Positions 1,538-36,451 of a DNA stretch of 38,200 nucleotides are shown here, piece by piece. The translations under genes were made by a program, and so were the position numbers. Within the stretch, counting starts at the first letter, position 1. Each line of letters begins with the position of its first letter. The notes under the pieces are model-generated. The model was not told where the DNA came from, did not search any database, and saw only the letters and a program-made list of their open reading frames with translations. This stretch comes from Escherichia phage sortregn, in the sequence record MN850588.1. One strand, 5' to 3'.

Positions 1538-3580
1538 TTAAAAACCCTCATTCATGAATACTTTGTTAGTGATAACGTCTTTACCCTTGCCGATCTTCCG
1601 GTGGGTAACTTTCAGTGGGGCCATGAAGTACGGCGCGAAGGCGAGGACCTCCTGGGGCGTCCGTAGCTTCTTGATGTCGGCCCGTTTCTTTCCGTCCAGT
1701 ACGTGCTTAAGGATCCCATTGTGGAGCCATTCCTTTTTCGCCTGTGGGCTATCGCTACCGGGCCAGAATACTTGCCACGCCACGAACTGATCGCCGTCCT
1801 TCTCCAACTCGTACCGGAAGGCGATCCCCCCAGTCCCTCGCGCCAATTCCAGACGGAAGCCCCTCACGTTGTAGTAGTCGTCCCTGCTGTACGTGGTCCG
1901 GCTTAAGTTCTTGTTCGGATCTACGAGCGAGTTCCCGCAGCAGCGGCAGATCCTGGCTACGATGTCGTTTTGTGCGCCGCATCCCTTCTGTACCACCTTC
2001 CGCCCGCTGGAGTCCTTCCAGTCGTCGCAGGTGATGAACTGGAAAAAGTGTTCGCAGCGTTCGCCAGTGTCGGGATCGACGTAGCGGCAGCGTCGGGCGT
2101 GTTTGCCGTTTAGCGTCGGGTGGCCCGCCTTGCGACACTTCGGACAGTCTAACTCTAATTCTCCTTTGCTCTCGTCTGCGCTGTGCTGGTATGCCTCCAG
2201 CAGCGGGGAGAAATACAGGGATCCGAGTTCGTCAAGCGTCCCGGCATAGTCGAGGACCAGGTGATCCTCCTTCGTCACCCCGGCGGCGATGTGGAACGGC
2301 TTAAGGATGCGCATACCACGGCCTAAAAGCTGGGTTAGGAGCGTGAGGGATCCGATCTTCCGCAGTATCACGGACGTGTCCCAGAACGGGACGTTAACGC
2401 CAGTCGTTAGGGCGTTAACCTGGAATATAAATTTGATCTCCCCGGTATTGGCGCGGCGCAAAATGTCCATGCGCTTCTTGCCCGTCGTGTCGTCCGTGAT
2501 GATGGCGTAAGGCGTACCAGGGGGAAGGGCCTCCGCCGCCTGTTTGCAGTGTCTCACGCCCGCACACGTCACTAACACGCCGTTCCTGTGCTGGGCGATG
2601 GCGTATACCTCCGCCATGATCTCATGCGTGAGCTTTTTGTCCTTAAGGATCGCCTTTTGCATGGCGTCCATTTCGGCGTCCGTGAACTCCTTAATGCCAT
2701 CCTCGCCGGACGATCGCCACTGGTCGAGGTTGTAGTGGAGATTGGAGATCCCGAAGTGAGTCGGAACAACCGCGCCGACGCTTACCAGGTATTCCGTCGA
2801 GATCTCGCATACCTTCTTACGCCAAAATCCGGGCTGTTCGAGGTCTGGCTGGATGATGGACTCCACGCCACGGTATGGCGTCCCGGTGTAGCCAATAATG
2901 CGGAGTTCCTTCCCGTAGACCTCGCGGGCGCGTTGCTGGAATGTGCGGATAATGATCGTATAGCTGGAGCGACCCGCCTCGATCATCTCCTCGTAAGTCT
3001 CGCCCTTGTGCTCGCCGATAATGGTCGGCTCGTCGAAGCCGTCCAGGATGATCTCCCCGGTTTTCTCGTCCCGCAGGTACTCCGGGACCACGCGCTCCTG
3101 TGAGCGGATCAGGTCCTCAATGTTGACGTGATGGCATTCATCGATCAGCAGGAACAGCGGCGCGTAATGGGCGAGTGCCTGACCTGGGCGGAGTCCTCCG
3201 ATCACTGTACCCTCGGAGCCGACCACGATCGGGAAGTGTGCAGACTTGCGGCCCAGGCTGGCGCAGTAGATCGAGGAGTTCACGCCGAAGTTTTTCAACT
3301 CCTCGAAGTCCTGATCGATGATCTCCCCCTGGCGGGACAGGATCATGGCAGGGAAACCCATATCCCTGATCCGGCGGGCCAGCATGGAGATCATGATGGT
3401 TTTACCCGCACTCACGGCGGCGTCCACAATGACCGGGCCAGGATAGCGACGGATGGCCTCCGCGCAAGCCTCATACGCGACGAACTGGTGATCGTATGGT
3501 GTAACGGGCATATCTCCCAGGGCGCGGAGAATCGCGTCCCGGTCGAGCGCTTCGATCTGTTTCTCCAATGTCATTAACAT
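1538..3580 (-). CDS. SF2 DEAH-box DNA helicase with C-terminal zinc-ribbon region
   Basis: 680 aa ORF; Walker A AAVSAGKT, motif II LLIDECHH, motif III YTGTP, motif VI QLLGRGMR; cysteine clusters CPKCRK, CRCCG. Confidence 0.8.
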   Translation of the reverse strand: MLMTLEKQIEALDRDAILRALGDMPVTPYDHQFVAYEACAEAIRRYPGPVIVDAAVSAGKTIMISMLARRIRDMGFPAMILSRQGEIIDQDFEELKNFGVNSSIYCASLGRKSAHFPIVVGSEGTVIGGLRPGQALAHYAPLFLLIDECHHVNIEDLIRSQERVVPEYLRDEKTGEIILDGFDEPTIIGEHKGETYEEMIEAGRSSYTIIIRTFQQRAREVYGKELRIIGYTGTPYRGVESIIQPDLEQPGFWRKKVCEISTEYLVSVGAVVPTHFGISNLHYNLDQWRSSGEDGIKEFTDAEMDAMQKAILKDKKLTHEIMAEVYAIAQHRNGVLVTCAGVRHCKQAAEALPPGTPYAIITDDTTGKKRMDILRRANTGEIKFIFQVNALTTGVNVPFWDTSVILRKIGSLTLLTQLLGRGMRILKPFHIAAGVTKEDHLVLDYAGTLDELGSLYFSPLLEAYQHSADESKGELELDCPKCRKAGHPTLNGKHARRCRYVDPDTGERCEHFFQFITCDDWKDSSGRKVVQKGCGAQNDIVARICRCCGNSLVDPNKNLSRTTYSRDDYYNVRGFRLELARGTGGIAFRYELEKDGDQFVAWQVFWPGSDSPQAKKEWLHNGILKHVLDGKKRADIKKLRTPQEVLAFAPYFMAPLKVTHRKIGKGKDVITNKVFMNEGF
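1823..1833 (-). repeat. CTGGGGGGATC 11-mer copy (sense strand of helicase gene)
   Basis: Exact match read on minus strand; frame-checked against helicase residues T583-G-G-I586. Confidence 0.85.
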
Positions 3581-3645
3581 TGTTTATCCCTTGTAATATC
3601 ACTAAAGCATGATTTATAGTAACCGGGAAATAACCGGAGGGCAAT
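3581..3645. promoter_or_regulatory. divergent promoter region between helicase and primase operons
   Basis: 65-bp AT-rich intergenic region between divergent genes; tandem GTAACCGG / ATAACCGG repeats just upstream of the primase SD. Confidence 0.4.
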
Positions 3646-4464
3646 ATGGCGATCTACAAAAAAGAGGACGTTCTCGCGGCGATGCCCGGCAAATGGGAAC
3701 AGGCGCTCCTCGATCTTTGTGGCTGGGACCGCAAGGCGTTTAACGGCAATCATCAACCTTGCCCGATCTGTGGCGGGACGGACCGCTTTCGCTGGGGCCA
3801 TAAGCAACAGACGAAGAAGGCGGAGGGCTTCGGCTACTGTTCCGGCTCCTGTGGCGGCGCTCGTGATGGCATGTTTTGGTTCATGACCAGCCGATCGCAG
3901 CCGTTCAACGAGGCGATCAACGACCTGGGCGACTGGATAGGCGGACTCACCCCGGAGAAGCGGGAAACCATCGTCAAGGAGGCGCGGAAGTATGCCCGCC
4001 AGCAGGATAAGCCCGCGCAGGACTGGGAACTCACCCCGGAGGACGTGGACAAGATCATGAGCAAAGGCACGATGCGCGACGGATTCCTGTATGTTCCATG
4101 CGCTCGTCCACTGGGGGGATCCCTGGGGCCGTGGTGCAACGTGGCGAAGATCGGCTCCGACAGGTCCGTGGTGTTTGCCGCTGGTGGCCCGACGTGGGGC
4201 GCGGTAGGTCTGATCCACCCAGTGCCAGACGCTCCGGTGTATCTGGTGGCGGATCCGGTCCATGCGGTGAACGTGGCGGCGCGAGGGGAGGCGGAGGTCT
4301 GGCTTACGTTCCGGCCTATGAACGCGGTCCAGGCGTCGGCGATATATGACGGCGATCGGGAGATCCGGTTCGTCTACACTGACCCGGACGAGGTTTTCCT
4401 GTACGGCTACGAGAGGACGGGGAGGCCATGCGTCGGCGGGCATCTTGCCGGGGCGTTCGGGTAA
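3646..4464 (+). CDS. DNA primase (zinc-ribbon plus TOPRIM-like region)
   Basis: HQPCPICGGTDRFRW and GYCSGSCGG match the primase zinc-binding ribbon of P4-alpha-like primases; later DGD acidic motif; GGAGGG SD upstream. Confidence 0.65.
   Translation: MAIYKKEDVLAAMPGKWEQALLDLCGWDRKAFNGNHQPCPICGGTDRFRWGHKQQTKKAEGFGYCSGSCGGARDGMFWFMTSRSQPFNEAINDLGDWIGGLTPEKRETIVKEARKYARQQDKPAQDWELTPEDVDKIMSKGTMRDGFLYVPCARPLGGSLGPWCNVAKIGSDRSVVFAAGGPTWGAVGLIHPVPDAPVYLVADPVHAVNVAARGEAEVWLTFRPMNAVQASAIYDGDREIRFVYTDPDEVFLYGYERTGRPCVGGHLAGAFG
4111..4121 (+). repeat. CTGGGGGGATC 11-mer copy
   Basis: Exact match; frame-checked against primase residues L156-G-G-S159. Confidence 0.85.
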
Positions 4465-4489
4465 AAAAAAAGGCCCCGCACGAGGGGCC
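4463..4489 (-). terminator. intrinsic terminator oriented for leftward transcription
   Basis: GGCCCC-GCACGA-GGGGCC hairpin 4472-4489 preceded on plus strand by A9, so U9 follows the hairpin on the minus transcript. Confidence 0.55.
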
Positions 4490-4542
4490 AGTGGGCGCGA
4501 CCGATACCAGCGGGCGCTAAAGCAATGGTGAACAGTCAACAA

Positions 4543-4564
4543 ATAGCACTTTTTGTTAAAACAC
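4543..4564 (+). promoter_or_regulatory. conserved promoter-like element copy 1 (ATAGCACTTTTTGTTAAAACAC)
   Basis: 22-mer shared with 6855-6876 (2 mismatches), each about 60-70 bp upstream of a rightward operon start. Confidence 0.35.
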
Positions 4565-4616
4565 AAAACAGTTAATCAATTATCGTTAGTCACCACCAAC
4601 CAAAGAAGGGCAGCAG

Positions 4617-5258
4617 ATGAAAGACGAGAAAGACACCACCACGATCGATCATGTGGACGGCATGACCGAGGCGGAACGCGCAGCGGCAGACGTGACCACT
4701 GTTAGCGGTCGCCGCTTCAACAAATCCAAGACGCCGGACGCTATCCGCCAGAAGTGGCAGACCCCGCGCTGGCTGTTCGACTGGGCCGTGAAGCGCTTCG
4801 GGCAATTCGGGATCGATGTGGCAGCAGAAAAGGCTAACGCCCTTTGTGATGTCTACCTGGACGAGAAAACGGACGCCCTCAAGGATGGCGTGGAGTGGGG
4901 AGCCGAGGGCGGGCTGGCGTGGTGTAACCCGCCATACGCGGAGCCGCTTCCGTGGATCGTGAAGGCCATCCAGCAAGCGAAGGATCGCGACGTTACGACC
5001 GTGTTTCTCCTGAACTCCGACGCGTCTACGGCGTGGTTTAAGAAGGCGCTGGACGCCGGGAGCCTGGTTATCCATATCACCAGCGACGGCGAGAACTCCG
5101 GGCGCGTGGCGTTCGTGAAGGCCGGGACCGAAGTCGCGGGCAAGAAGAACAGCAAGCCGTCCGTAATGTTCGTTATCAAGCCGAAGAAGCGCGGACCGAT
5201 CAAGACTGAATATCTGACCCAGGCGGAGATGATGTTCGAAGGCAAAACGATGATTTAA
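4617..5258 (+). CDS. DNA N6-adenine methyltransferase (phage Dam-like)
   Basis: 213 aa; WQTPRWLFDW N-terminal motif and NPPY catalytic motif (WCNPPYAEP) typical of the phage N6A methylase family. Confidence 0.8.
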   Translation: MKDEKDTTTIDHVDGMTEAERAAADVTTVSGRRFNKSKTPDAIRQKWQTPRWLFDWAVKRFGQFGIDVAAEKANALCDVYLDEKTDALKDGVEWGAEGGLAWCNPPYAEPLPWIVKAIQQAKDRDVTTVFLLNSDASTAWFKKALDAGSLVIHITSDGENSGRVAFVKAGTEVAGKKNSKPSVMFVIKPKKRGPIKTEYLTQAEMMFEGKTMI

Positions 5259-5274
5259 CCGAGAGGACCCAGAG

Positions 5275-5856
5275 ATGATTATTTATGCACCAGTAAGCGC
5301 CTTACGCGCTCACCAACTGACCAAAGGCCAGCAGGACGTCCGCTATTACCTGAACGCGATCCACTTCATCGGCAACCGGATCCGCACGTCTAACGGTCAT
5401 GTTTGCATGGAAAGCACCCATAAGCTCGTCAACGCGCCGGAGGAGGGGATCATCCTCTCAATCTCCACGCCACCGACTGGGCGGATCTTCTCCGCCGTGA
5501 TCGACACGGACGCCGGGATCGTGTACTGGCTGGACATTCCGGCAGATAAGCCGAAGGACCTCGAAGAAGTGGACCACAAAAAGGCCCGCGTCGCTGTGGG
5601 GACCGTGGACATTGTGGAGGCCAATTATCCGAACGTGGACGCACTCCTGAACAAGGCCCGCGAGAACTCGAAGGCCGTCCACGAGATCGGCGTGGCGACG
5701 CCTTACCTCGGAATGATCGAGAAGCTGGCGAAGAAGTTCGGGATCAAGATGCCTTTTGCGAAACTGAACTTTAACGGCGCAGCGGAGCCGATCCGCGTGA
5801 ACCTGACCACGCCGGACGGCGAGGCCACCCTGATCATTATGCCCGCGAGAGTGTAA
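5275..5856 (+). CDS. hypothetical protein
   Basis: 193 aa ORF in Dam operon, no recognised motif. Confidence 0.5.
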   Translation: MIIYAPVSALRAHQLTKGQQDVRYYLNAIHFIGNRIRTSNGHVCMESTHKLVNAPEEGIILSISTPPTGRIFSAVIDTDAGIVYWLDIPADKPKDLEEVDHKKARVAVGTVDIVEANYPNVDALLNKARENSKAVHEIGVATPYLGMIEKLAKKFGIKMPFAKLNFNGAAEPIRVNLTTPDGEATLIIMPARV

Positions 5857-5858
5857 GC

Positions 5859-6083
5859 ATGGGACCTTATCAGACCTACCGCTGGAAATATTTCGTCCGT
5901 TGCGTGGCGGACGAACTCATGGATCGTAAACTGGTGGCCTCCCGCGAGGAGGCCGAGCACTTCGCCGAAGATCTGGAGGATTCGTTCGCGGAGGACTACG
6001 ACCCGCGTCCGATCTCAGAATGGCGAGCTATCGCGAAGAAAGACGCAGACGACTACGAGAAGGATCTGAAACGTGAAGCATAA
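5859..6083 (+). CDS. hypothetical acidic protein
   Basis: 74 aa ORF, tightly packed after preceding gene. Confidence 0.4.
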   Translation: MGPYQTYRWKYFVRCVADELMDRKLVASREEAEHFAEDLEDSFAEDYDPRPISEWRAIAKKDADDYEKDLKREA

Positions 6084-6825
6084 GGCGATCTTTTTATTCA
6101 ACCTGACCCGGATCATGGTGGACAAGTGGCTGGACGCTGGCGTGGAATGCTGGATGTATGACGGGCAGCACGAGCCAGGGATCCACCCAGACGCCGACGA
6201 GCCGAACCTGATCCGAGTGGGCCGGATGTTCGACGCGGACAACTCAATCAGGGAAGCGGCTCGCATCGCCGAGGAAGTCGGCCCCGGCGTGATCTTCGTG
6301 GCGTCCTTCGCTGAATGCACCGATCTAACCTGTACCGGGGCGCGATGGTGGGAAGCGAAGCGCAAGAAGGATCCGCGCTTCCAGGAGAAGGCCGTGGCGC
6401 TGGCTAAGATGGTGAAGCACGTCGCGGAATTTTGCAGCGTGGAGAACGGCAGCTTTGAACCCGCTTCGACGGTCCCCTGGATGCTGGAGAATCCGAAGAT
6501 CTCCCGACTCTCCACGATGTGGCGACCTTGCGATCACTGGTTCCACCCCTACAACTTCGGCGGCTACTTGCCGGAGGATCACCAGCATAGCCTCTACCCG
6601 GAGATCTACCCGGCGCGGGACGCGTACCCGAAGCAGACGGGGATCTGGTGCGGTGGCGGCTTCAAGATGCCGGAACACAAGAACGTCCCGGCGGTTAAGG
6701 ATAATCCCGGATGGTCGAAGCTGGGCGGATCTTCGACCCGAACGAAGAACATCCGCAGCGCCACCCCCGAAGGCTTCGCCGTCGCCGTGTTTATCTACAA
6801 CGCCACCCCGATCGCTCCATTCTGA
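6073..6825 (+). CDS. hypothetical protein
   Basis: 250 aa ORF with GTG start overlapping previous stop, followed by intrinsic terminator; no confident domain call. Confidence 0.5.
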   Translation: MKHKAIFLFNLTRIMVDKWLDAGVECWMYDGQHEPGIHPDADEPNLIRVGRMFDADNSIREAARIAEEVGPGVIFVASFAECTDLTCTGARWWEAKRKKDPRFQEKAVALAKMVKHVAEFCSVENGSFEPASTVPWMLENPKISRLSTMWRPCDHWFHPYNFGGYLPEDHQHSLYPEIYPARDAYPKQTGIWCGGGFKMPEHKNVPAVKDNPGWSKLGGSSTRTKNIRSATPEGFAVAVFIYNATPIAPF

Positions 6826-6830
6826 CACAA

Positions 6831-6850
6831 GGCCCTCCGGGGCCTTTTTT
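6831..6850 (+). terminator. intrinsic terminator
   Basis: GGCCC-TCCG-GGGCC hairpin followed by TTTTTT. Confidence 0.65.
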
Positions 6851-6854
6851 GCGT

Positions 6855-6876
6855 ATAGCACTTTTTGCTAAAGCAC
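6855..6876 (+). promoter_or_regulatory. conserved promoter-like element copy 2 (ATAGCACTTTTTGCTAAAGCAC)
   Basis: See copy 1; both followed by CAATTATC and CACCAAC-like segments. Confidence 0.35.
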
Positions 6877-6927
6877 TTTCAATTATCCTTTGTTATTATT
6901 CTTTCACACCAACACGAGGACGACGAA

Positions 6928-7152
6928 ATGAAACAGACTTTACTCCCGACCAAAACAAACAAGGCTCAACTGGTTAACCCGCTGTTACTGAAACAGGCGC
7001 ACATCCTGATCGAGGTGGCGATGATTCTCCGTAATCGCCTGAAAATGTACGCCGCCGGGCCAGCAGCTACAGCAGCTTTAAAGCGCGAGGCTCGCCAGGC
7101 AGAGGACGACGCTCGCGAACTGATCCGAGGCGCTTATGGTTATCGCCCGTAA
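6928..7152 (+). CDS. hypothetical protein
   Basis: ORF 6865..7152 with start moved to ATG 6928 preceded by GAGGA. Confidence 0.45.
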   Translation: MKQTLLPTKTNKAQLVNPLLLKQAHILIEVAMILRNRLKMYAAGPAATAALKREARQAEDDARELIRGAYGYRP

Positions 7153-7411
7153 GACTTCGCGCCGGGAGTTATGGGAGGCGGCGCAAGCCGCCGAACTGGA
7201 CGGCATGATCAGCGCAGTCTCCCGCGTGTTCGGCAAGGAGGCGATCGCCGACATATCGATCGAGACGCCGGACGGCGAGATGTACCTGAACAACCCGGAC
7301 CCGCACCACTGGCGCGTCGTGCCTGGGACTAAAGGCGGAAAGAACGCTCTCAAAGACGCGATCGCCGACACCAAAAACCGGAAGCACCTCAAAGGGGGAT
7401 CTCGTGGGTAA
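7136..7411 (+). CDS. hypothetical protein
   Basis: 91 aa ORF overlapping neighbours. Confidence 0.4.
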   Translation: MVIARKTSRRELWEAAQAAELDGMISAVSRVFGKEAIADISIETPDGEMYLNNPDPHHWRVVPGTKGGKNALKDAIADTKNRKHLKGGSRG

Positions 7412-7796
7412 AGTAACAGCGAAGATTATCGGATGGACTGACGAGCAGGACGCGGAACTGGTTCGCCTGGCTGGAACCATGCCAGCGCCGGACCTGGCGA
7501 AGAAGATAAAACGCAACTTCCGCCAGATGCAGGTCCAGGCGTCGAAGCTGGGGATCTCCCTGGCGTACCGCAGGACGTACACGCAATGGACAGCGGAGGA
7601 GGACCGGAAGCTGGTCCGCTTCTGGGAGGATAAACTGACCCCGGAGGACGTGGTGGAGATCGCAGAGACTACGGGGATCTATGAAGTGACCCGCGACGAA
7701 CTGACACACGAGCACGTCGCGACCTGGCTCGACAAATCGCGCCCGGCAGTACGCGGACGCCTGGCAAAATTCAAGAAAGAGGGGAAAATAGCATGA
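7404..7796 (+). CDS. putative DNA-binding protein with two W-x-x-E-(E/Q)-D helix motifs (GcrA/Myb-like)
   Basis: GTG start after GGGGG SD; GWTDEQDAELVRLAG and QWTAEEDRKLVRFW resemble GcrA N-terminal / Myb-SANT DNA-binding repeats. Confidence 0.45.
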   Translation: MGKVTAKIIGWTDEQDAELVRLAGTMPAPDLAKKIKRNFRQMQVQASKLGISLAYRRTYTQWTAEEDRKLVRFWEDKLTPEDVVEIAETTGIYEVTRDELTHEHVATWLDKSRPAVRGRLAKFKKEGKIA

Positions 7797-10789: not shown

Positions 10790-11026
10790 TTACCTCTTGC
10801 CTTTGACCTGGAGCCGCTGACGACGGCCCCGCGTTTTGTTGTTGTACTCCTCGTGGGACAGTAGATCCCACGTTTCCCCCTCGTCCCACGTCACGAGCCG
10901 CCAGCTATAGCCCACGTTGAACGCTAACACCTTGCCGAAACCCCGGAGGCGCTTCGGTGACAACTCCCGCGCATAGTACCGCGCCAGAATGTCGTCGGCC
11001 TTCCGCTGGACCTTCTCCGGGATCAT
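10790..11026 (-). CDS. hypothetical basic protein
   Basis: 78 aa ORF, ATG start, overlaps next gene. Confidence 0.45.
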   Translation of the reverse strand: MIPEKVQRKADDILARYYARELSPKRLRGFGKVLAFNVGYSWRLVTWDEGETWDLLSHEEYNNKTRGRRQRLQVKGKR

Positions 11027-11693: not shown

Positions 11694-11766
11694 CGTTATC
11701 TCTCCGGTAGTGGGCGACCCATTGCCGCCCGGTGAAAGAACTATAACAACATTTGATAAATCGCTT

Positions 11767-12420
11767 TTAGCAATTCGTGCTATTCGGATAAAGATACTCG
11801 CTCAACCGGGCCACCAGCGGCTCGTCTGGACCGAACTCAAACAGCCCGCCGTCGTTCTTGATCGAGTGGTGGATCTCCGCCAGTAACGTCTCCGCCCGCT
11901 GGAGCCTGGACGCCGCCGCGTTATCATGCCCGATCAGCTTCGTGATCTCCTCCTCCAGATCAGCGCCGAGCGCCGACGTCGCCCAGTGTTCGGCATACTC
12001 GCGATCCTTCAACAACCGGATCAGGGCCAACACGTCCGACTCGATACCGACAGTCGGGCCAGGCTGGAGCCGTGGCTGGATCTCGTCGAGCGTCTGCTGG
12101 GTAGCGTTCAACGTCCGGCGGATCTTGTCCTGTTCGGCCTTGCTCAGGTCCAGGATCAGCGGCGAAGCCGGGAGGCCATTTAACCAGGCGATCAGGTCGT
12201 CGTAAGGCATGACGGAATAAGCCTTCTCCGACGCGTACCCGGTGATCCGCCAGTCAGTGGTCGAACTGTACGCCTCGGAAATATCATCCTCCCGCAATTC
12301 GCGATAGACGATCTCAGCGCGACCGTTGTCGATCTTGCTCAGGCTCTCGATCAGCGTCTCCGGGATGTGGATCACTTCTTCGCCATTCTTAACGGCGGTT
12401 ACTGCGACATATCTGATCAT
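11767..12420 (-). CDS. hypothetical protein
   Basis: ORF 11767..12447 with start moved to ATG 12420 (GAGGAAAGAGAG upstream, ATGA overlap with upstream gene). Confidence 0.5.
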   Translation of the reverse strand: MIRYVAVTAVKNGEEVIHIPETLIESLSKIDNGRAEIVYRELREDDISEAYSSTTDWRITGYASEKAYSVMPYDDLIAWLNGLPASPLILDLSKAEQDKIRRTLNATQQTLDEIQPRLQPGPTVGIESDVLALIRLLKDREYAEHWATSALGADLEEEITKLIGHDNAAASRLQRAETLLAEIHHSIKNDGGLFEFGPDEPLVARLSEYLYPNSTNC

Positions 12421-12851: not shown

Positions 12852-12991
12852 ATTGCCCTCCGTTGTGTGGAAATCAATATTACATAACGTTACCATGATG
12901 TAAAGCCCAACCGTGATAATAATTGACTTTACAGTGGTAACAAGGGCGGGTAACATTGCGACCAGTAACGCAACCATGAGGTGATTAAACA
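12852..12991. promoter_or_regulatory. divergent promoter/operator region with GGTAAC repeats
   Basis: 140-bp intergenic region between divergent operons; GGTAAC at 12936-41 and 12949-54, AGTAAC at 12964-69, GTTACC at 12888-93; sigma70-like hexamers TTGACT 12923-28 and GATAAT 12914-19. Confidence 0.45.
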
Positions 12992-14656: not shown

Positions 14657-14911
14657 CCGGGGCGTGTGTTGGTAACGAGTAACACCCCCCCTTATAGGGG
14701 GGGATGTAACGTGTTACCGCAACCCACAAGGCCGAAAACATAGTTTTTTATGTGTACTGTTACCGACAAGCGACCGTAATCAAATCAATCATTTATGTGT
14801 GATTCGGTAACGGGGAAAGTAGCGAATCGGTCGCGGGGAAATCGGGGGGTAAAAATCGGGGGTGACCCCCGACAAAATCCCCGCCAAATAATCATTGATA
14901 AGTGATGCGAA
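14657..14911. promoter_or_regulatory. repeat-rich non-coding region, candidate replication origin/regulatory region
   Basis: 255 bp non-coding after replicative ATPase gene: C7-TTATA-G7 hairpin 14685-14703, six (G/A/T)GTAAC sites, TTATGTGT twice, three AAATCGGGG-like repeats, GGGGG-TGA-CCCCC palindrome. Confidence 0.4.
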
Positions 14912-16630: not shown

Positions 16631-17185
16631 ATGGCAAACGAACAGAACCTTAAGAAGGGGAACCGCTTCTCCAAAGAGAACCAGCCGGAGCGACGCGGCA
16701 GGGCGAAGCAGAACCGGACGTTACTCCTCGAAGCACTCCGCAAGGTTCGGATCAAGGAGGCCACCGGGCGCAAGGTCGAGGACATCGATCCAAACACTGG
16801 CGAGGTGAAGGTGAACAGCGAAACGGGCGAGCCGATCATGGTGGACGAGTTCGTGGAGGTCCCGCTCACGGAGGACATGTTCATCCAGCGAGCGATCCAG
16901 ATGGCCCTCGTAGACGGTTCCATGATGCGCGACATCATGAGCCGATTAATCCCCTACACCAAGCCGACCAGCCCGACCTATTGCTTTGAACTGACCGGAT
17001 CCACCCCGTCCGAGCGTATCACCGAGATCGAGGACCTGGTGGCAGCGGGAGAGCTTCCGTTCGACGCGGCGGAGTCTATGGTGAAGATGATCCGCCACGG
17101 CGCGGAAGTGTTCGAAATGTCCGAAATGGTCAAACGACTGGACGCACTGGAGGCCCGACTGAATGGCGAAGCCAAAGACGAATAA
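16631..17185 (+). CDS. terminase small subunit (P22 gp3-like)
   Basis: N-terminal KKGNRF motif as in P22 gp3; GGAGGA SD; upstream of TerL. Confidence 0.55.
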   Translation: MANEQNLKKGNRFSKENQPERRGRAKQNRTLLLEALRKVRIKEATGRKVEDIDPNTGEVKVNSETGEPIMVDEFVEVPLTEDMFIQRAIQMALVDGSMMRDIMSRLIPYTKPTSPTYCFELTGSTPSERITEIEDLVAAGELPFDAAESMVKMIRHGAEVFEMSEMVKRLDALEARLNGEAKDE

Positions 17186-17597
17186 ACTCCCGCCGGACAC
17201 TTACGGCAGACTGGAGGCGCTGGGCCTGAAATGGTTCACCGCCTCCCCTTACCCTTATTTCATCGTGTGCTTTGACCCGCAGGACGAGGAGATGGTGGCG
17301 AAGCTGGGCGAATGCTTCCCGGACTGGAACCGCGAGAAGCCGATCCAGCAAGGCGTCGCCATTGAGTACCACGCCGCCGACGTTAAGCTGGTGTTCGTAG
17401 GCGTCCGCCGGGGCCAATACTGGCGGACGACCATCGTCCACGAGATCGTCCACGTTAAGAACTACATCGGCGACACGCTGGGGATCGAGTGGGACGTGAA
17501 CAACGACGAGCCGGAGGCTTACTTCGTGGGCTGGCTGTTTAACATGATGGAGCAAACCTTCCAGGATCTGGGCTATGGCAAAAAATCGAAAGGATAA
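17163..17597 (+). CDS. hypothetical protein with HExxH motif (possible zincin-like)
   Basis: 144 aa ORF between TerS and TerL; HEIVH followed by acidic EPEAYF. Confidence 0.45.
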   Translation: MAKPKTNKLPPDTYGRLEALGLKWFTASPYPYFIVCFDPQDEEMVAKLGECFPDWNREKPIQQGVAIEYHAADVKLVFVGVRRGQYWRTTIVHEIVHVKNYIGDTLGIEWDVNNDEPEAYFVGWLFNMMEQTFQDLGYGKKSKG

Positions 17598-21449: not shown

Positions 21450-21479
21450 CTGGTCGGACCGCACGAAAAGCTAAAGACA

Positions 21480-21505
21480 AGCCCGCTTCGGCGGGCTATT
21501 CTTTG
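21480..21505 (+). terminator. intrinsic terminator after portal gene
   Basis: AGCCCGC-TTCG-GCGGGCT hairpin followed by ATTCTTTG. Confidence 0.6.
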
Positions 21506-21508
21506 CCT

Positions 21509-21519
21509 CGACACATCAC
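21509..21519 (+). repeat. CGACACATCAC element copy 1 (after portal terminator)
   Basis: 11-mer identical to 25041-25051; 25 nt upstream of ATG 21544. Confidence 0.7.
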
Positions 21520-35979: not shown

Positions 35980-36177
35980 TTAGCGCGGCAGGTCGAGCCG
36001 AGCCTGTAAAACGCCCGCGTAAGCCTTCATCACGTCCAACTGTACGACGAGGAGACGCTGTTCCGTAGGGTTAACTTTCGCGAACCCCGGCGAGTTAAAA
36101 ATGAATTGCGACAGTGCCGTGATCTTGCCTTCGAGATCGGCCTTTTCGATGCGGACGCGTTCTAAAAAGTCAGTCAT
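35980..36177 (-). CDS. hypothetical protein, downstream partner of HTH gene
   Basis: ORF 35980..36195 (TTG) with start moved to ATG 36177 after AGGAG; 8-nt overlap with HTH gene. Confidence 0.4.
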   Translation of the reverse strand: MTDFLERVRIEKADLEGKITALSQFIFNSPGFAKVNPTEQRLLVVQLDVMKAYAGVLQARLDLPR

Positions 36178-36388
36178 GGTTAACTCCTGTTTCAATCAGA
36201 TCCGCGATCGAGACGTCGAGCGCCTTCGCGATGCGGCATAGGTTAGTAACAGATGGCAATTCATGCCCGTTTTCGTAGCGGCTCAACTGATGCGGGATCA
36301 TGCCGATTCGCTCCGCTAATTCTTTTTGCTGGATGCCTTTCGCTTCGCGGACTTGCTTCACGAGGCAAACGGCTTTTAATTCCGCCAT
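36170..36388 (-). CDS. XRE/Cro-family helix-turn-helix transcriptional regulator
   Basis: ORF 36170..36403 with start moved to ATG 36388 after AAGGAG; QQKELAERIGMIPHQLSRYENG HTH signature. Confidence 0.7.
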   Translation of the reverse strand: MAELKAVCLVKQVREAKGIQQKELAERIGMIPHQLSRYENGHELPSVTNLCRIAKALDVSIADLIETGVNHD

Positions 36389-36451
36389 GTTCGGCTCCTT
36401 CATTGGTTAACGTCTCCGTGATTATTCATTAAAGCGTTATGCAAATCAAAA
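36389..36451 (-). promoter_or_regulatory. candidate sigma70 promoter for HTH cassette
   Basis: On minus strand TTGATT, 17-bp spacer, AATAAT upstream of the HTH gene. Confidence 0.4.

What the first reader, a model, noticed from the sequence alone, without database searches (positions are those of the whole stretch)
4543..6876. Duplicated 22-bp element ATAGCACTTTTTGYTAAARCAC upstream of two rightward operons
Copies at 4543-4564 and 6855-6876 are each followed by CAATTATC and a CACCAAC-like segment, then the SD of the next gene (Dam at 4617; 74-aa gene at 6928). The second copy directly follows an intrinsic terminator. This looks like a reused promoter or 5-prime-leader cassette, possibly recognised by a phage or host factor. 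It does not fit a standard sigma70 spacing cleanly.
Basis: seen in the sequence. Interest (0 to 1): 0.45.

Follow-up and report, generated by a model that had tools for sequence, protein, structure and literature searches.

The report
Marbox-like promoter box shared with T1 phages
The duplicated 22-bp element is the upstream half of a promoter used four times in this coliphage genome and hundreds of times in T1-like phages, and it reads as a perfect binding site for the host's MarA/SoxS/Rob stress regulators, which suggests, but does not prove, that these phages wire their transcription to those regulators.

Summary
In detail: exact copies lie at 4543-4564 and 6855-6876, and none of 100 shuffles gave a match.

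**What the window is.** It is the complete 38,200-bp genome of Escherichia phage sortregn (genus Murrayvirus).

**What the element is.** It is the first 20 bp of a sigma-70 promoter cassette: box, an 18-19 bp gap, (TGn)TAnnnT -10, a start about 7 nt later, then a short CA-rich leader and SD. Two more copies exist, at 11783-11764 (minus strand, lysis operon) and 21458-21477 (head genes).

**Comparative evidence.** Orthologous promoters in Sortsnevirus keep the same -10 and leader but carry a true -35 in place of the box.

**What is already published.** The box is the "21-nt direct repeat aaATAGCACnnnTTGnTAAAA" of phage TLS, also reported in T1 and Rtp. Its function was left open. I found it in 1,109 phage records, almost all from Enterobacterales hosts.

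**New reading.**
- The box matches the marbox AYnGCACnnWnnRYYAAA at every specified position.
- It is in forward orientation, in the same base-pair register as the class II micF-Rob complex.
- No AraC-type gene exists in Murrayvirus or T1, and no DNA-binding protein is shared by all box-bearing lineages.
- A host activator (Rob, MarA or SoxS) is therefore the most economical candidate. This is inferred, not shown.

**A lead.** A small acidic protein family (window 5859-6083, T1 gp19) co-occurs with the box.

The parts
4543..4562 (+). P1 box (ATAGCACTTTTTGTTAAAAC), upstream of the Dam / gp32 / gp31 / second-methyltransferase operon. Predicted to span -50 to -31.
   Evidence: Exact match to AYNGCACNNWNNRYYAAA and to gcannwwntgnnaaa. 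Conserved in Lumpael, IME_EC2 and KMB41.
4581..4586 (+). P1 -10 hexamer TATCGT (box positions 39-44). Predicted start at A4592 or C4593. The unstructured CA-rich leader runs 4592-4616, and ATG is at 4617.
   Evidence: Read from the sequence. The same offset holds in 287 instances. KMB41 has TATCTT here. Leader dG is -1 kcal/mol.
6829..6852 (+). Intrinsic terminator ending the Dam operon, immediately before P2.
   Evidence: 7-bp stem, T-run. (dG -15.5 kcal/mol, z -3.05).
6855..6874 (+). P2 box (ATAGCACTTTTTGCTAAAGC), upstream of the operon of the 74-aa gene through the Hoc-like gene.
   Evidence: Alignment with relatives, and with Sortsnevirus where a UP-like A-tract plus a -35 replaces it.
6891..6899 (+). 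P2 extended -10 TGtTATTAT (hexamer 6894-6899, box positions 40-45). Predicted start at A6906. The leader runs 6906-6927, and ATG is at 6928.
   Evidence: Sequence. Conserved CCTTTGTTAT(T/A)AT in seven genomes. Leader dG is 0 kcal/mol.
11764..11783 (-). P3 box (ATAGCACGAATTGCTAAAAG on the minus strand). It overlaps the last codons of the 217-aa gene, upstream of the gp17 homologue and the lysis cassette.
   Evidence: Orthologous copies occur in Lumpael (ATCGCAC...), IME_EC2 and KMB41.
11740..11748 (-). P3 extended -10 TGtTATAGT (hexamer 11745-11740). Predicted start at A11733.
   Evidence: at box positions 36-44.
11712..11730 (-). 5'-terminal leader hairpin GGGCGGCaatggGUCGCCC of the P3 transcript.
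   Evidence: dG -13.6 kcal/mol, but z only -1.26. Stems differ between paralogous and orthologous cassettes while the loop aAUGG stays.
21458..21477 (+). P4 box (ACCGCACGAAAAGCTAAAGA), just after the portal gene and upstream of the head-gene block.
   Evidence: 0 mismatches. In a more distant relative (UViG 2974611538) the same position carries the canonical ATAGCACTTTTTGCTAAA. In Sortsne it carries a TTTACA -35.
21481..21502 (+). Terminator hairpin GCCCGCttcgGCGGGC (21481-21496) inside the P4 spacer, followed by TATTCT (21497-21502). TATTCT would be both the -10 of P4 and the start of the terminator's U-tract. Predicted start at 21509-21511.
   Evidence: dG -20.4 kcal/mol, z -4.56. T1's annotated terminators 39998-40024 and 41980-42007 lie inside box promoters in the same way.
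5859..6083 (+). gp31-family gene (74 aa, acidic, predicted four-helix bundle). It is a possible accessory factor of the promoter system. The association is by co-occurrence only.
   Evidence: The family is present in every box-bearing lineage checked and absent from three box-less Sortsnevirus genomes. AF2 pLDDT 90.8. There is no convincing structural match.

Best explanation
The element is the activator-binding box of a sigma-70 promoter cassette that lacks a usable -35. The layout is:

- a 20-bp asymmetric box (ATAGCACnnnTTGYTAAAr) at about -50 to -31;
- an 18-19 bp gap;
- a (TGn)TAnnnT -10;
- a start about 7 nt later;
- a 22-40 nt leader and SD.

The window has four such promoters. They drive the methyltransferase operon, the next rightward operon, the leftward operon that ends in the lysis genes, and the head genes. 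Replication genes use ordinary -35/-10 promoters.

The box is a marbox, the site of the monomeric dual-HTH AraC-type activators MarA, SoxS, Rob and RamA. It is in the forward orientation, at the class II position (centre -40.5 or -41.5).

The proposed mechanism: one activator molecule inserts its two recognition helices at GCAC (-47 to -44) and at GYTAAA (-38 to -33). It then contacts sigma-70 region 4 and alpha-CTD, and so replaces -35 recognition. The phage has no such protein, so the activator is most likely the host's. Rob is present constitutively; MarA and SoxS are stress-induced; RamA occurs in Salmonella and Klebsiella.

- Shown: the repeats, their geometry, their conservation and the -35 replacement.
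- Inferred: the transcription starts, activator dependence and the identity of the activator.
For: **Promoter architecture**
- There are four perfect matches to AYNGCACNNWNNRYYAAA in the window and none with exactly one mismatch. Expected is 0.54 at up to 1 mismatch.
- Three of the four also match gcannwwntgnnaaa perfectly, the definition used in PMC12052159.
- All four are intergenic or at a gene end, and all are co-oriented with the downstream genes.
- The -10 lies at a fixed offset. Over 287 distinct instances the logo is tGnTATAAT at box positions 36-44, with CA at 50-51.

**Register with a solved class II complex**
- If the start is box position 51, then G4, A6, G13, Y14, A16 and A17 fall at -47, -45, -38, -37, -35 and -34.
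- These are the bases contacted by Rob in the micF class II complex (PMC9178005).
- Class II sites are defined as forward sites near -41 that overlap a poor -35 (PMC12052159, PMC10268841, PMC9638938).

**Similarity to host marboxes**
- The host's own sites are close: mar CCACGTTTTGCTAAA and mdaB GCACATTTTGCTAAT.

**Comparative evidence**
- Sortsnevirus orthologues have a real -35 in place of the box.
- No AraC-type ORF exists in four Murrayvirus genomes, in T1, or in any held T1-like locus.
- The identical box and geometry occur in T1-like siphoviruses, in Murrayvirus podoviruses and in Dibbivirus myoviruses, whose recognisable DNA-binding proteins are unrelated: T1 ST23 is Cro-like; Murrayvirus has an XRE protein and a dual-Myb-like gp27.
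- The box is found in 1,109 phage records, almost all from Enterobacterales hosts.
- The only box-bearing lineage I found outside Enterobacteriaceae (Dibbivirus, from Pantoea and reportedly Xanthomonas) carries its own MarA-sized AraC-family gene. Its best PDB match is MarA 1BL0.
Against: - No binding or transcription data exist. The starts are inferred from the -10.
- The box is more conserved than a marbox needs: A3, T11, T12 and A19 are nearly fixed. Position 19 is A where the consensus has Y.
- Of 192 substitutions in diverged copies, 79 break the marbox IUPAC classes. Among these, GCAT (14 cases) is tolerated in soxboxes, from my own knowledge.
- The box also contains a 5+5 bp inverted repeat, TAGCA-N5-TGCTA, centred near -42. 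This could suit a dimeric phage HTH protein.
- The pattern is all-or-none: 4-7 boxes in Murrayvirus, none in Sortsnevirus, although phages of both genera were isolated on E. coli MG1655. It also co-occurs with the gp31 family. Both suggest that a phage-specific factor is needed as well.
- Under standard growth Rob is largely sequestered, and MarA and SoxS are scarce (PMC10268841, PMC9178005). A lytic phage relying on them needs explaining.
- The MarA helix-3 contact residues are not conserved in the Dibbivirus AraC-like protein.
Confidence: 0.5

Rival explanations
1. The box is bound by a phage-encoded factor and its marbox resemblance is coincidental. One candidate is the early XRE/Cro-type protein (window 36170-36403, minus strand). 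It would bind as a dimer to the TAGCA-N5-TGCTA inverted repeat centred near -42 and activate as lambda cI does at PRM. Another candidate is the dual-Myb-like gp27 (7404-7796).
For: - The 5+5 bp inverted repeat is perfect in three of four window copies, and it explains the conserved A3.
- The XRE recognition helix differs between Murrayvirus (IPHQLSR) and box-less Sortsnevirus (LQQRLSC).
- gp27 has two W-x-x-E-(E/Q)-D Myb-like repeats and hits PHROG 323, 'transcriptional regulator'.
- A phage-made activator would give temporal control and would explain the all-or-none pattern between genera.
- The cI precedent (OR2 centred at -42) is from my own knowledge.
Against: - T1-like phages carry the identical box and geometry but have no detectable homologue of the XRE protein or of gp27. 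Murrayvirus has no homologue of T1's ST23. Two or three unrelated proteins would have to recognise the same 18 bp.
- The box is directional and asymmetric where it is most conserved: C7 against T11, A1 against A17, and the flanks.
- The P4 copy (ACCGCAC...AGCTAAA) breaks the dyad but keeps the marbox.
- gp27 is 65% identical in Sortsnevirus, which has no box.
- sortregn lacks eight small Lumpael genes yet keeps working boxes.
Confidence: 0.2
2. The box works without any DNA-binding activator, as an unusual UP-element-like or upstream contact for RNA polymerase itself (alpha-CTD). Together with the extended -10 this would make a strong factor-independent promoter. This is one of the ideas in the TLS paper.
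For: - The centre of the box is A/T-rich (TTTTT, GAATT, TAATT).
- It lies at -50 to -31, where UP subsites lie.
- Sortsnevirus orthologues have an A-tract (AAAAAACC) at the corresponding place.
- RNA polymerase is a factor common to all hosts.
- Many copies have TGn extended -10 elements, which lessen the need for a -35.
- PMC11447400 raises this idea.
Against: - The most invariant positions are G/C bases (GCAC, G13), which alpha-CTD minor-groove A-tract recognition does not explain.
- The variable part is exactly the A/T core.
- The UP consensus (AAAWWTWTTTTnnnAAA, from my own knowledge) does not match.
- Several copies lack TG (P1, P4) and have weak -10 hexamers (TATCGT, TATTCT).
Confidence: 0.12
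3. The box is a negative site, either a 'stoperator' or an operator. A repressor binds there to silence or time the adjacent promoter or to block read-through.
For: - This is suggested for the TLS repeats in PMC11447400.
- The copies are co-oriented with transcription and often sit next to terminators.
- Sortsnevirus has its own recurring motif (ATCACGAAAGCGTTAA) at variable positions, including a promoter spacer. That is operator-like.
Against: - The box occupies a fixed position exactly where the -35 is missing. The orthologous box-less promoters have a good -35 instead, which points to a positive role.
- Without the box these promoters would have no upstream recognition element at all.
Confidence: 0.06

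Closest known systems
21-nt intergenic direct repeats of T1-like phages (TLS: aaATAGCACnnnTTGnTAAAA; also T1, Rtp, Rogue1), PMC11447400
   Same: - Same sequence and the same T/G/A sub-types of the central triplet.
- Intergenic and co-oriented with transcription.
- About 75 nt upstream of start codons: 74, 73, 90 and 86 nt here.
- Many copies per genome: T1 has 15 perfect marbox-pattern hits.
- The same -10 offset applies.
   Different: - Here it occurs in a P22-like podovirus genus (Murrayvirus), where it has not been reported.
- There are fewer copies (4).
- It is confined to the non-replication operons.
- The published description leaves the function open and does not mention the marbox.
Class II marbox / soxbox / robbox promoters of E. 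coli and Salmonella (micF, fumC, lpxC P2, lpxL P1, rfaY)
   Same: - The 20-bp asymmetric site fits AYnGCACnnWnnRYYAAA.
- Forward orientation, centre about -41, overlapping a degenerate -35.
- Sigma-70 -10, often with TG.
- The base-pair register is identical to the Rob-micF complex.
   Different: - The site is in a phage genome and serves as the general promoter type for most operons, not as a stress-regulon member.
- It lies much closer to consensus, and is much more uniform, than host sites.
- Position 19 is A, not Y.
- Activator binding is untested.
Phage T4 middle promoters (MotA box at -30 plus AsiA remodelling of sigma-70 region 4)
   Same: - A phage-wide promoter class in which the -35 is replaced by an activator box while the sigma-70 -10 is kept.
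- A small helical acidic phage protein (the gp31 family here, AsiA in T4) accompanies the system.
   Different: - The box has a different sequence and position (-41 against -30).
- No MotA homologue is present.
- A role for gp31 is only a co-occurrence lead.
- T4 facts are from my own knowledge.
Lambda PRM activated by cI bound at OR2 (centre -42)
   Same: An activator site centred near -42 contacts sigma-70 region 4. The window encodes a small Cro/cI-type HTH protein, and the box contains a 5+5 inverted repeat.
   Different: The box is asymmetric and directional. The same box is used by phages that lack this HTH protein.

Membership tests
T1-type 21-nt intergenic direct repeat (TLS DR family) | Consensus aaATAGCACnnnTTGnTAAAA, with maximum conservation at ATAGCAC and TAAAA | tested here: met
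   P1, P2 and P3 match. P4 is a diverged copy (ACCGCACGAAAAGCTAAAG).
T1-type 21-nt intergenic direct repeat (TLS DR family) | Intergenic, in the direction of transcription, about 76 nt upstream of a start codon | tested here: met
   Distances are 74, 73, 90 and 86 nt. All four are co-oriented with the downstream genes.
T1-type 21-nt intergenic direct repeat (TLS DR family) | Sub-groups by central triplet (TTT, GAA, AAA) | tested here: met
   The window has TTT twice and GAA twice. T1, Rtp and TLS have the same types.
Class II marbox (MarA/SoxS/Rob/RamA) promoter | Match to AYnGCACnnWnnRYYAAAY / gcannwwntgnnaaa | tested here: met
   All 18 positions from A1 to A18 are met in all four copies. 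The 15-mer is perfect in three copies and has 1 mismatch in P4. Position 19 (Y) is not met: it is A or G.
Class II marbox (MarA/SoxS/Rob/RamA) promoter | Forward orientation, with the site overlapping the -35 and centred about -41 | tested here: met
   The position is relative to the predicted -10 and start, not to a mapped start. The centre is -40.5 (P1, P3) or -41.5 (P2, P4). The register equals the Rob-micF contacts.
Class II marbox (MarA/SoxS/Rob/RamA) promoter | Degenerate -35 hexamer with a canonical sigma-70 -10 | tested here: met
   The -35 position matches TTGACA at 3, 1, 1 and 4 of 6 bases. Class II promoters average 1.9 (PMC10268841). The -10 hexamers are TATCGT, TATTAT, TATAGT and TATTCT.
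Class II marbox (MarA/SoxS/Rob/RamA) promoter | Binding of MarA, SoxS or Rob, and activator-dependent transcription | not testable with these tools
   This needs EMSA or footprinting, in vitro transcription and host mutants.
Sigma-54 (-24/-12) promoter | TGGCAC-N5-TTGCW, with GG and GC 10 bp apart | tested here: not met
   The box reads TAGCAC-N3-TTGC. GG is AG, the spacing is 2 bp short, and a conserved sigma-70 -10 lies 25 bp further downstream.
UP element | A/T-only consensus at -59 to -38, recognised by alpha-CTD | tested here: not met
   The invariant positions are GCAC and G13. The A/T core is the variable part.
Dimeric HTH operator acting as a class II activator site (lambda cI type) | Dyad symmetry, and a cognate HTH protein present wherever the site is present | tested here: not met
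   The dyad is limited to 5+5 bp and is broken in P4. No HTH protein is shared between T1-like phages and Murrayvirus.

The most novel reading that the evidence does not exclude
Three morphologically different groups of Enterobacterales phages have replaced the -35 of most of their promoters with a near-consensus class II marbox. The groups are T1-like siphoviruses, Murrayvirus podoviruses and Dibbivirus myoviruses. They would therefore run their transcription through the host's Mar/Sox/Rob activators. A conserved small acidic phage protein (the gp31 / T1 gp19 family) would act as the switch. It might free or stabilise the host activator, or block -35-dependent transcription in the way AsiA does. 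This would be sigma appropriation using a borrowed host activator. It would tie T1-type phage development to the antibiotic and oxidative stress state of the cell.
Probability: 0.35. Interest if true: 0.85.

Novelty: new member of a known kind. Interest (0 to 1): 0.62.

Why it matters
T1 is one of the seven classical T phages, yet how T1-like phages direct host RNA polymerase is unknown. The 2024 TLS re-annotation found only three sigma-70-like promoters and 18 unexplained repeats.

If those repeats are class II marbox promoters, several consequences follow:
- The puzzle becomes directly testable with existing reagents: purified MarA, SoxS and Rob; marA soxS rob mutants; inducers such as salicylate, paraquat and dipyridyl.
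- More than a thousand sequenced phages of E. coli, Klebsiella, Salmonella and Shigella, many proposed for therapy, would depend on the same regulators that drive multidrug resistance. That would link antibiotic exposure to phage productivity.
- It would give a compact, portable promoter design: the terminator hairpin sits inside the promoter spacer.
- The contrast between Murrayvirus and Sortsnevirus gives a natural swap experiment.

Tried and rejected
- **TTGYTA as a -35.** It lies 22 bp from the conserved -10, which is too far. The sigma-70 scan found no promoter at either copy.
- **Sigma-54.** The GG is missing and the spacing is 2 bp short.
- **CAATTATC as part of the element.** It sits at different offsets, is not enriched and is not conserved.
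- **AGCACTTT direct repeat within copy 2.** It is not enriched and is absent from copy 1.
- **A phage-encoded MarA/SoxS/Rob homologue.**
  - phmmer --max on six-frame ORFs of six genomes gave a best E-value of 0.09.
  - Pfam on 28 window proteins found only one HTH_3 protein.
  - A repeat search with the Dibbivirus AraC-like protein against all held loci found nothing.
- **gp27 as a universal box binder.** The profile finds no T1-like homologue, and Sortsnevirus keeps the gene.
- **A shared regulator between T1 and Murrayvirus.** Only primase, helicase, VRR-NUC, Dam, exonuclease VIII, Erf and an endonuclease are shared, and all are also in Sortsnevirus.
- **Rfam.** No family matched in the window.
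- **Literature.**
  - No paper links the marbox or Mar/Sox/Rob with phage promoters.
  - A search for the string ATAGCAC returned only primer noise.
- **Deletion junction of sortregn relative to Lumpael.** No repeat lies at the junction.
Full report
**1. Observation**

They agree at 20 of 22 bases. The degenerate 22-mer has no other match at up to 3 mismatches and none in 100 shuffles.

- The terminator before copy 2 is real (dG -15.5 kcal/mol, z -3.05).
- Both copies lie 73-74 nt upstream of an ATG preceded by an SD.
- CAATTATC follows both, but at different offsets. It is not enriched and is not conserved in relatives.
- The CACCAAC-like stretch is the conserved start of the leader.

**2. 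Identity of the window**

- The region is 98.6% identical to Salmonella phage Lumpael, genus Murrayvirus.
- The window is 38,200 bp and closes on itself relative to Lumpael.
- Its 74-aa protein is named sortregn_7 in NCBI.
- PMC7552041 lists Escherichia phage sortregn (MN850588) at 38,200 bp, isolated on E. coli MG1655.
- The window is therefore the whole sortregn genome.
- It lacks 3.3 kb of Lumpael (gp05' to gp12).
- There is no phage RNA polymerase or sigma factor in the annotation.

**3. More copies, and a promoter geometry**

A palindrome search turned up a third site at 11768-11782. Read on the minus strand it is ATAGCACGAATTGCTAAAAG, upstream of the leftward operon that ends in holin, endolysin and spanin. 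All three fit the marbox consensus AYnGCACnnWnnRYYAAA. Searching that pattern gave four perfect matches and none with one mismatch, against 0.54 expected. The fourth is at 21458, just after the portal gene.

In every copy a -10-like hexamer starts at box position 39 or 40:

| Promoter | -10 element |
|---|---|
| P1 | TATCGT |
| P2 | TGtTATTAT |
| P3 | TGtTATAGT |
| P4 | TATTCT |

The TTGYTA inside the box is 22 bp from that hexamer, so it cannot be the -35. The real -35 position matches TTGACA at 3, 1, 1 and 4 of 6 bases.

**4. Comparative test**

- Box counts differ sharply between genera. Lumpael has 6 perfect boxes, IME_EC2 has 7 and KMB41 has 6. The three Sortsnevirus genomes (Sortsne, IME279, Kc237) have none.
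- Orthologous promoter regions align well from the -10 onward.
- Upstream of gp29, Murrayvirus has the box. Sortsnevirus has ATCACGAAATAATTAAAAAACC followed by TTGCGG, a 17-bp spacer, and then the same TGtTATATT.
- After the portal gene, Murrayvirus has ACCGCACGAAAAGCTAAAGACA. A more distant relative (UViG 2974611538) has the canonical ATAGCACTTTTTGCTAAAGACA. Sortsne has TTTACA, a 17-bp spacer, and the same TATTCT.
- This fixes the -10 assignments and shows that the box stands where a -35 would otherwise be.

**5. The box is the known T1-type repeat**

These include Rtp (46,219 bp) and TLS (49,902 bp).
- T1 itself has 15 perfect marbox-pattern hits.
- PMC11447400 (2024) describes 18 intergenic 21-nt repeats in TLS. 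Their consensus is aaATAGCACnnnTTGnTAAAA, they are co-oriented with transcription, and they lie about 76 nt upstream of start codons. The same repeats are reported in T1, Rtp and Rogue1. That paper found only three sigma-70-like promoters. Its suggestions were stoperators, enhancer sites or UP elements.
- Over 287 distinct instances the downstream logo is tGnTATAAT at positions 36-44 and CA at 50-51. That is an extended -10 and a start site at position 51.
- A 30-nt blastn query found the box in 1,109 of 50,697 phage records, at 7,286 places. By organism name: Klebsiella 521, Escherichia 330, Shigella 35, Salmonella 33, Citrobacter 30, Enterobacter 30, Cronobacter 19.

**6. Marbox reading**

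The literature defines class II promoters as having a forward marbox that overlaps a degenerate -35.
- The site centre lies between -36 and -55 (PMC12052159).
- Sites cluster near -41, with on average 1.9 matches to the -35 (PMC10268841).
- The micF soxbox is centred at -41.5, with A site GCAC and B site CAAA (PMC9638938).

In the Rob-micF transcription complex, Rob contacts -47G and -45A, then -38G, -37T, -35 and -34 (PMC9178005). With the start at box position 51, G4, A6, G13, Y14, A16 and A17 fall on exactly those positions.

Host marboxes are close relatives of the phage box: mar CCACGTTTTGCTAAA and mdaB GCACATTTTGCTAAT.

I found no paper that links marboxes or Mar/Sox/Rob to phage promoters.

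**7. Who binds?**

- No AraC-type protein is encoded by Murrayvirus, Sortsnevirus, T1 or the held T1-like loci.
- The recognisable DNA-binding proteins differ between lineages.
  - Murrayvirus has an XRE HTH_3 protein and a dual-Myb-like gp27.
  - T1-like phages have the Cro-like ST23.
  - None crosses between the groups.
- An identical 18-20 bp asymmetric site, at an identical position, in phages with unrelated regulators is most simply explained by a shared host protein.
- Rob is constitutive and binds marboxes with higher affinity than MarA or SoxS, though it is largely aggregated in standard conditions (PMC10268841).
- Dibbivirus supports an AraC-type reader. These Pantoea (and reportedly Xanthomonas) myoviruses have at least 5 perfect boxes with the -10 at position 39.
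  - They also carry their own 136-aa AraC-family gene: HTH_18 at 1.8e-14, with best PDB hits MarA 1BL0 and RamA 7BEF.
  - Among phage records this gene is confined to that genus.
  - However, its helix-3 residues differ from those of MarA.

**8. A co-occurring phage protein**

- Only one family is shared by the box-bearing lineages yet missing from Sortsnevirus: the 74-aa acidic protein at 5859-6083, which corresponds to T1 gp19.
- A local profile finds it in T1, TLS, Rtp, Shfl1, four Murrayviruses, UViG 2974611538 and Dibbivirus.
- Divergent members retrieved from metagenomes again sit next to boxes.
- The family has 57 representatives at 50% clustering, all 62-88 aa.
- The AF2 model is a confident four-helix bundle with pLDDT 90.8.
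- The contrast rests essentially on one loss, in Sortsnevirus, so this is a lead and not evidence of function.
- If it is real, it could supply the phage-specific switch that the all-or-none distribution suggests.

**9. Weaknesses**

- Nothing here shows binding or initiation.
- The box is more uniform than marbox recognition requires.
- It contains a partial dyad.
- In diverged copies, 79 of 192 substitutions violate the marbox classes.
- I therefore rate "promoter cassette with a -35-replacing box" as very likely, about 0.9.
- I rate [quoted passage not shown] at about 0.5.

**10. Verdict**

The element itself is a new member of a published but unexplained repeat family. The marbox class II reading appears to be new and is directly testable.

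Noticed in passing
window 1-38200: The window is the complete genome of Escherichia phage sortregn (MN850588). Relative to Lumpael it lacks 3.3 kb (Lumpael 1933-5234; junction at window 15241/15242, with no repeat at the junction). The missing stretch holds about eight small genes and two box promoters, so none of those genes is needed for the remaining boxes to work.
   Followed up: yes
window 6865-6927: RefSeq starts the Lumpael gp29 homologue at a TTG (window 6865) that lies inside the box and upstream of the predicted transcription start (6906). ATG 6928, behind GAGGA, is the likely start, giving 74 aa rather than 95. IME_EC2 is annotated with the short form.
   Followed up: partly
window 21481-21502; L128 (T1) 39976-40024 and 41956-42007: A terminator hairpin sits inside the 18-bp spacer between the box and the -10. 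The T-rich -10 region would double as the terminator's U-tract. This makes a very compact terminator-promoter junction. T1's annotated terminators lie inside box promoters in the same way.
   Followed up: partly
T1-like loci, e.g. L128 1450-1500, L038 407-460: Many T1-like box promoters have an inverted repeat that brackets the -10 (for example GGGGTA ... TATAGT TACCCC). It appears as a G-rich run at box positions 29-31 and a C-rich run at 47-50 in the 287-instance profile. It lies upstream of the predicted start, so it would be present only in read-through RNA or as DNA structure.
   Followed up: no
window 11712-11730 (-); L003 near 36170 and 28210; L004 upstream of gp53: GAATT-type box promoters, and their Sortsnevirus counterparts, start their transcripts with a hairpin. 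Its stem differs between copies (GGGCGGC/GUCGCCC, GGCGGG/CCCGCC, GGCGGGG/CCCCGCC) while the loop keeps AAUGG. This may be an RNA-stability element or a protein-binding element.
   Followed up: partly
L004 (Sortsne) upstream of gp15, gp44, gp19, gp53, gp20/21, gp27: Box-less Sortsnevirus has its own recurring motif (T)ATCACGAAAGCGTTAA at variable positions relative to ordinary -35/-10 promoters: upstream, in the spacer, and overlapping the -10. That is operator-like. A related ATATCACTAAAGCATGAT lies in the window's early divergent promoter region (3596-3613).
   Followed up: partly
window 12889-12954 and 14671-14811: Seven of the window's 15 GGTAAC/GTTACC hexamers cluster in the two intergenic regions that flank the 554-aa primase/helicase gene. 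They may be origin iterons or operators of the early promoters.
   Followed up: partly
window 4463-4489: The hairpin GGCCCCgcacgaGGGGCC after the primase gene has its T-run on the minus strand only (A9 on the plus strand). It therefore looks like a terminator for leftward transcription, although no annotated minus-strand gene lies to its right.
   Followed up: no
window 10790-11026 (-): The 78-aa protein in the P3 operon has a ParE-like toxin domain (Pfam PF24732, E 1.3e-18).
   Followed up: no
L002 (Lumpael) 4430-4708 and L052 1538-1858: Lumpael gp10, the first gene behind one box promoter, is 84% identical in protein to an ORF of a 49-kb T1-like genome (UViG 2595698707). Promoter-plus-gene cassettes appear to move between T1-like phages and Murrayvirus.
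   Followed up: no
window 7404-7796 (+): gp27 (130 aa) has two W-x-x-E-(E/Q)-D-x-x-L Myb/SANT-like repeats and hits PHROG 323 ('transcriptional regulator'). It looks like a monomeric dual-HTH DNA-binding protein of unknown target, encoded in the P2 operon. It is conserved in Sortsnevirus.
   Followed up: partly
L134 (Pantoea phage AAM37) 36758-37168 and 37165-37210: Dibbivirus encodes a MarA-sized AraC-family protein. The 3' end of its gene overlaps the start of a perfect box promoter by a few bases.
   Followed up: partly
window 17175-17437 vs L002: Lumpael's record lacks 263 bp that sortregn has inside the 144-aa ORF just upstream of the large terminase gene, near the ends of the Lumpael record. 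This could be an assembly or terminal artefact in Lumpael.
   Followed up: no
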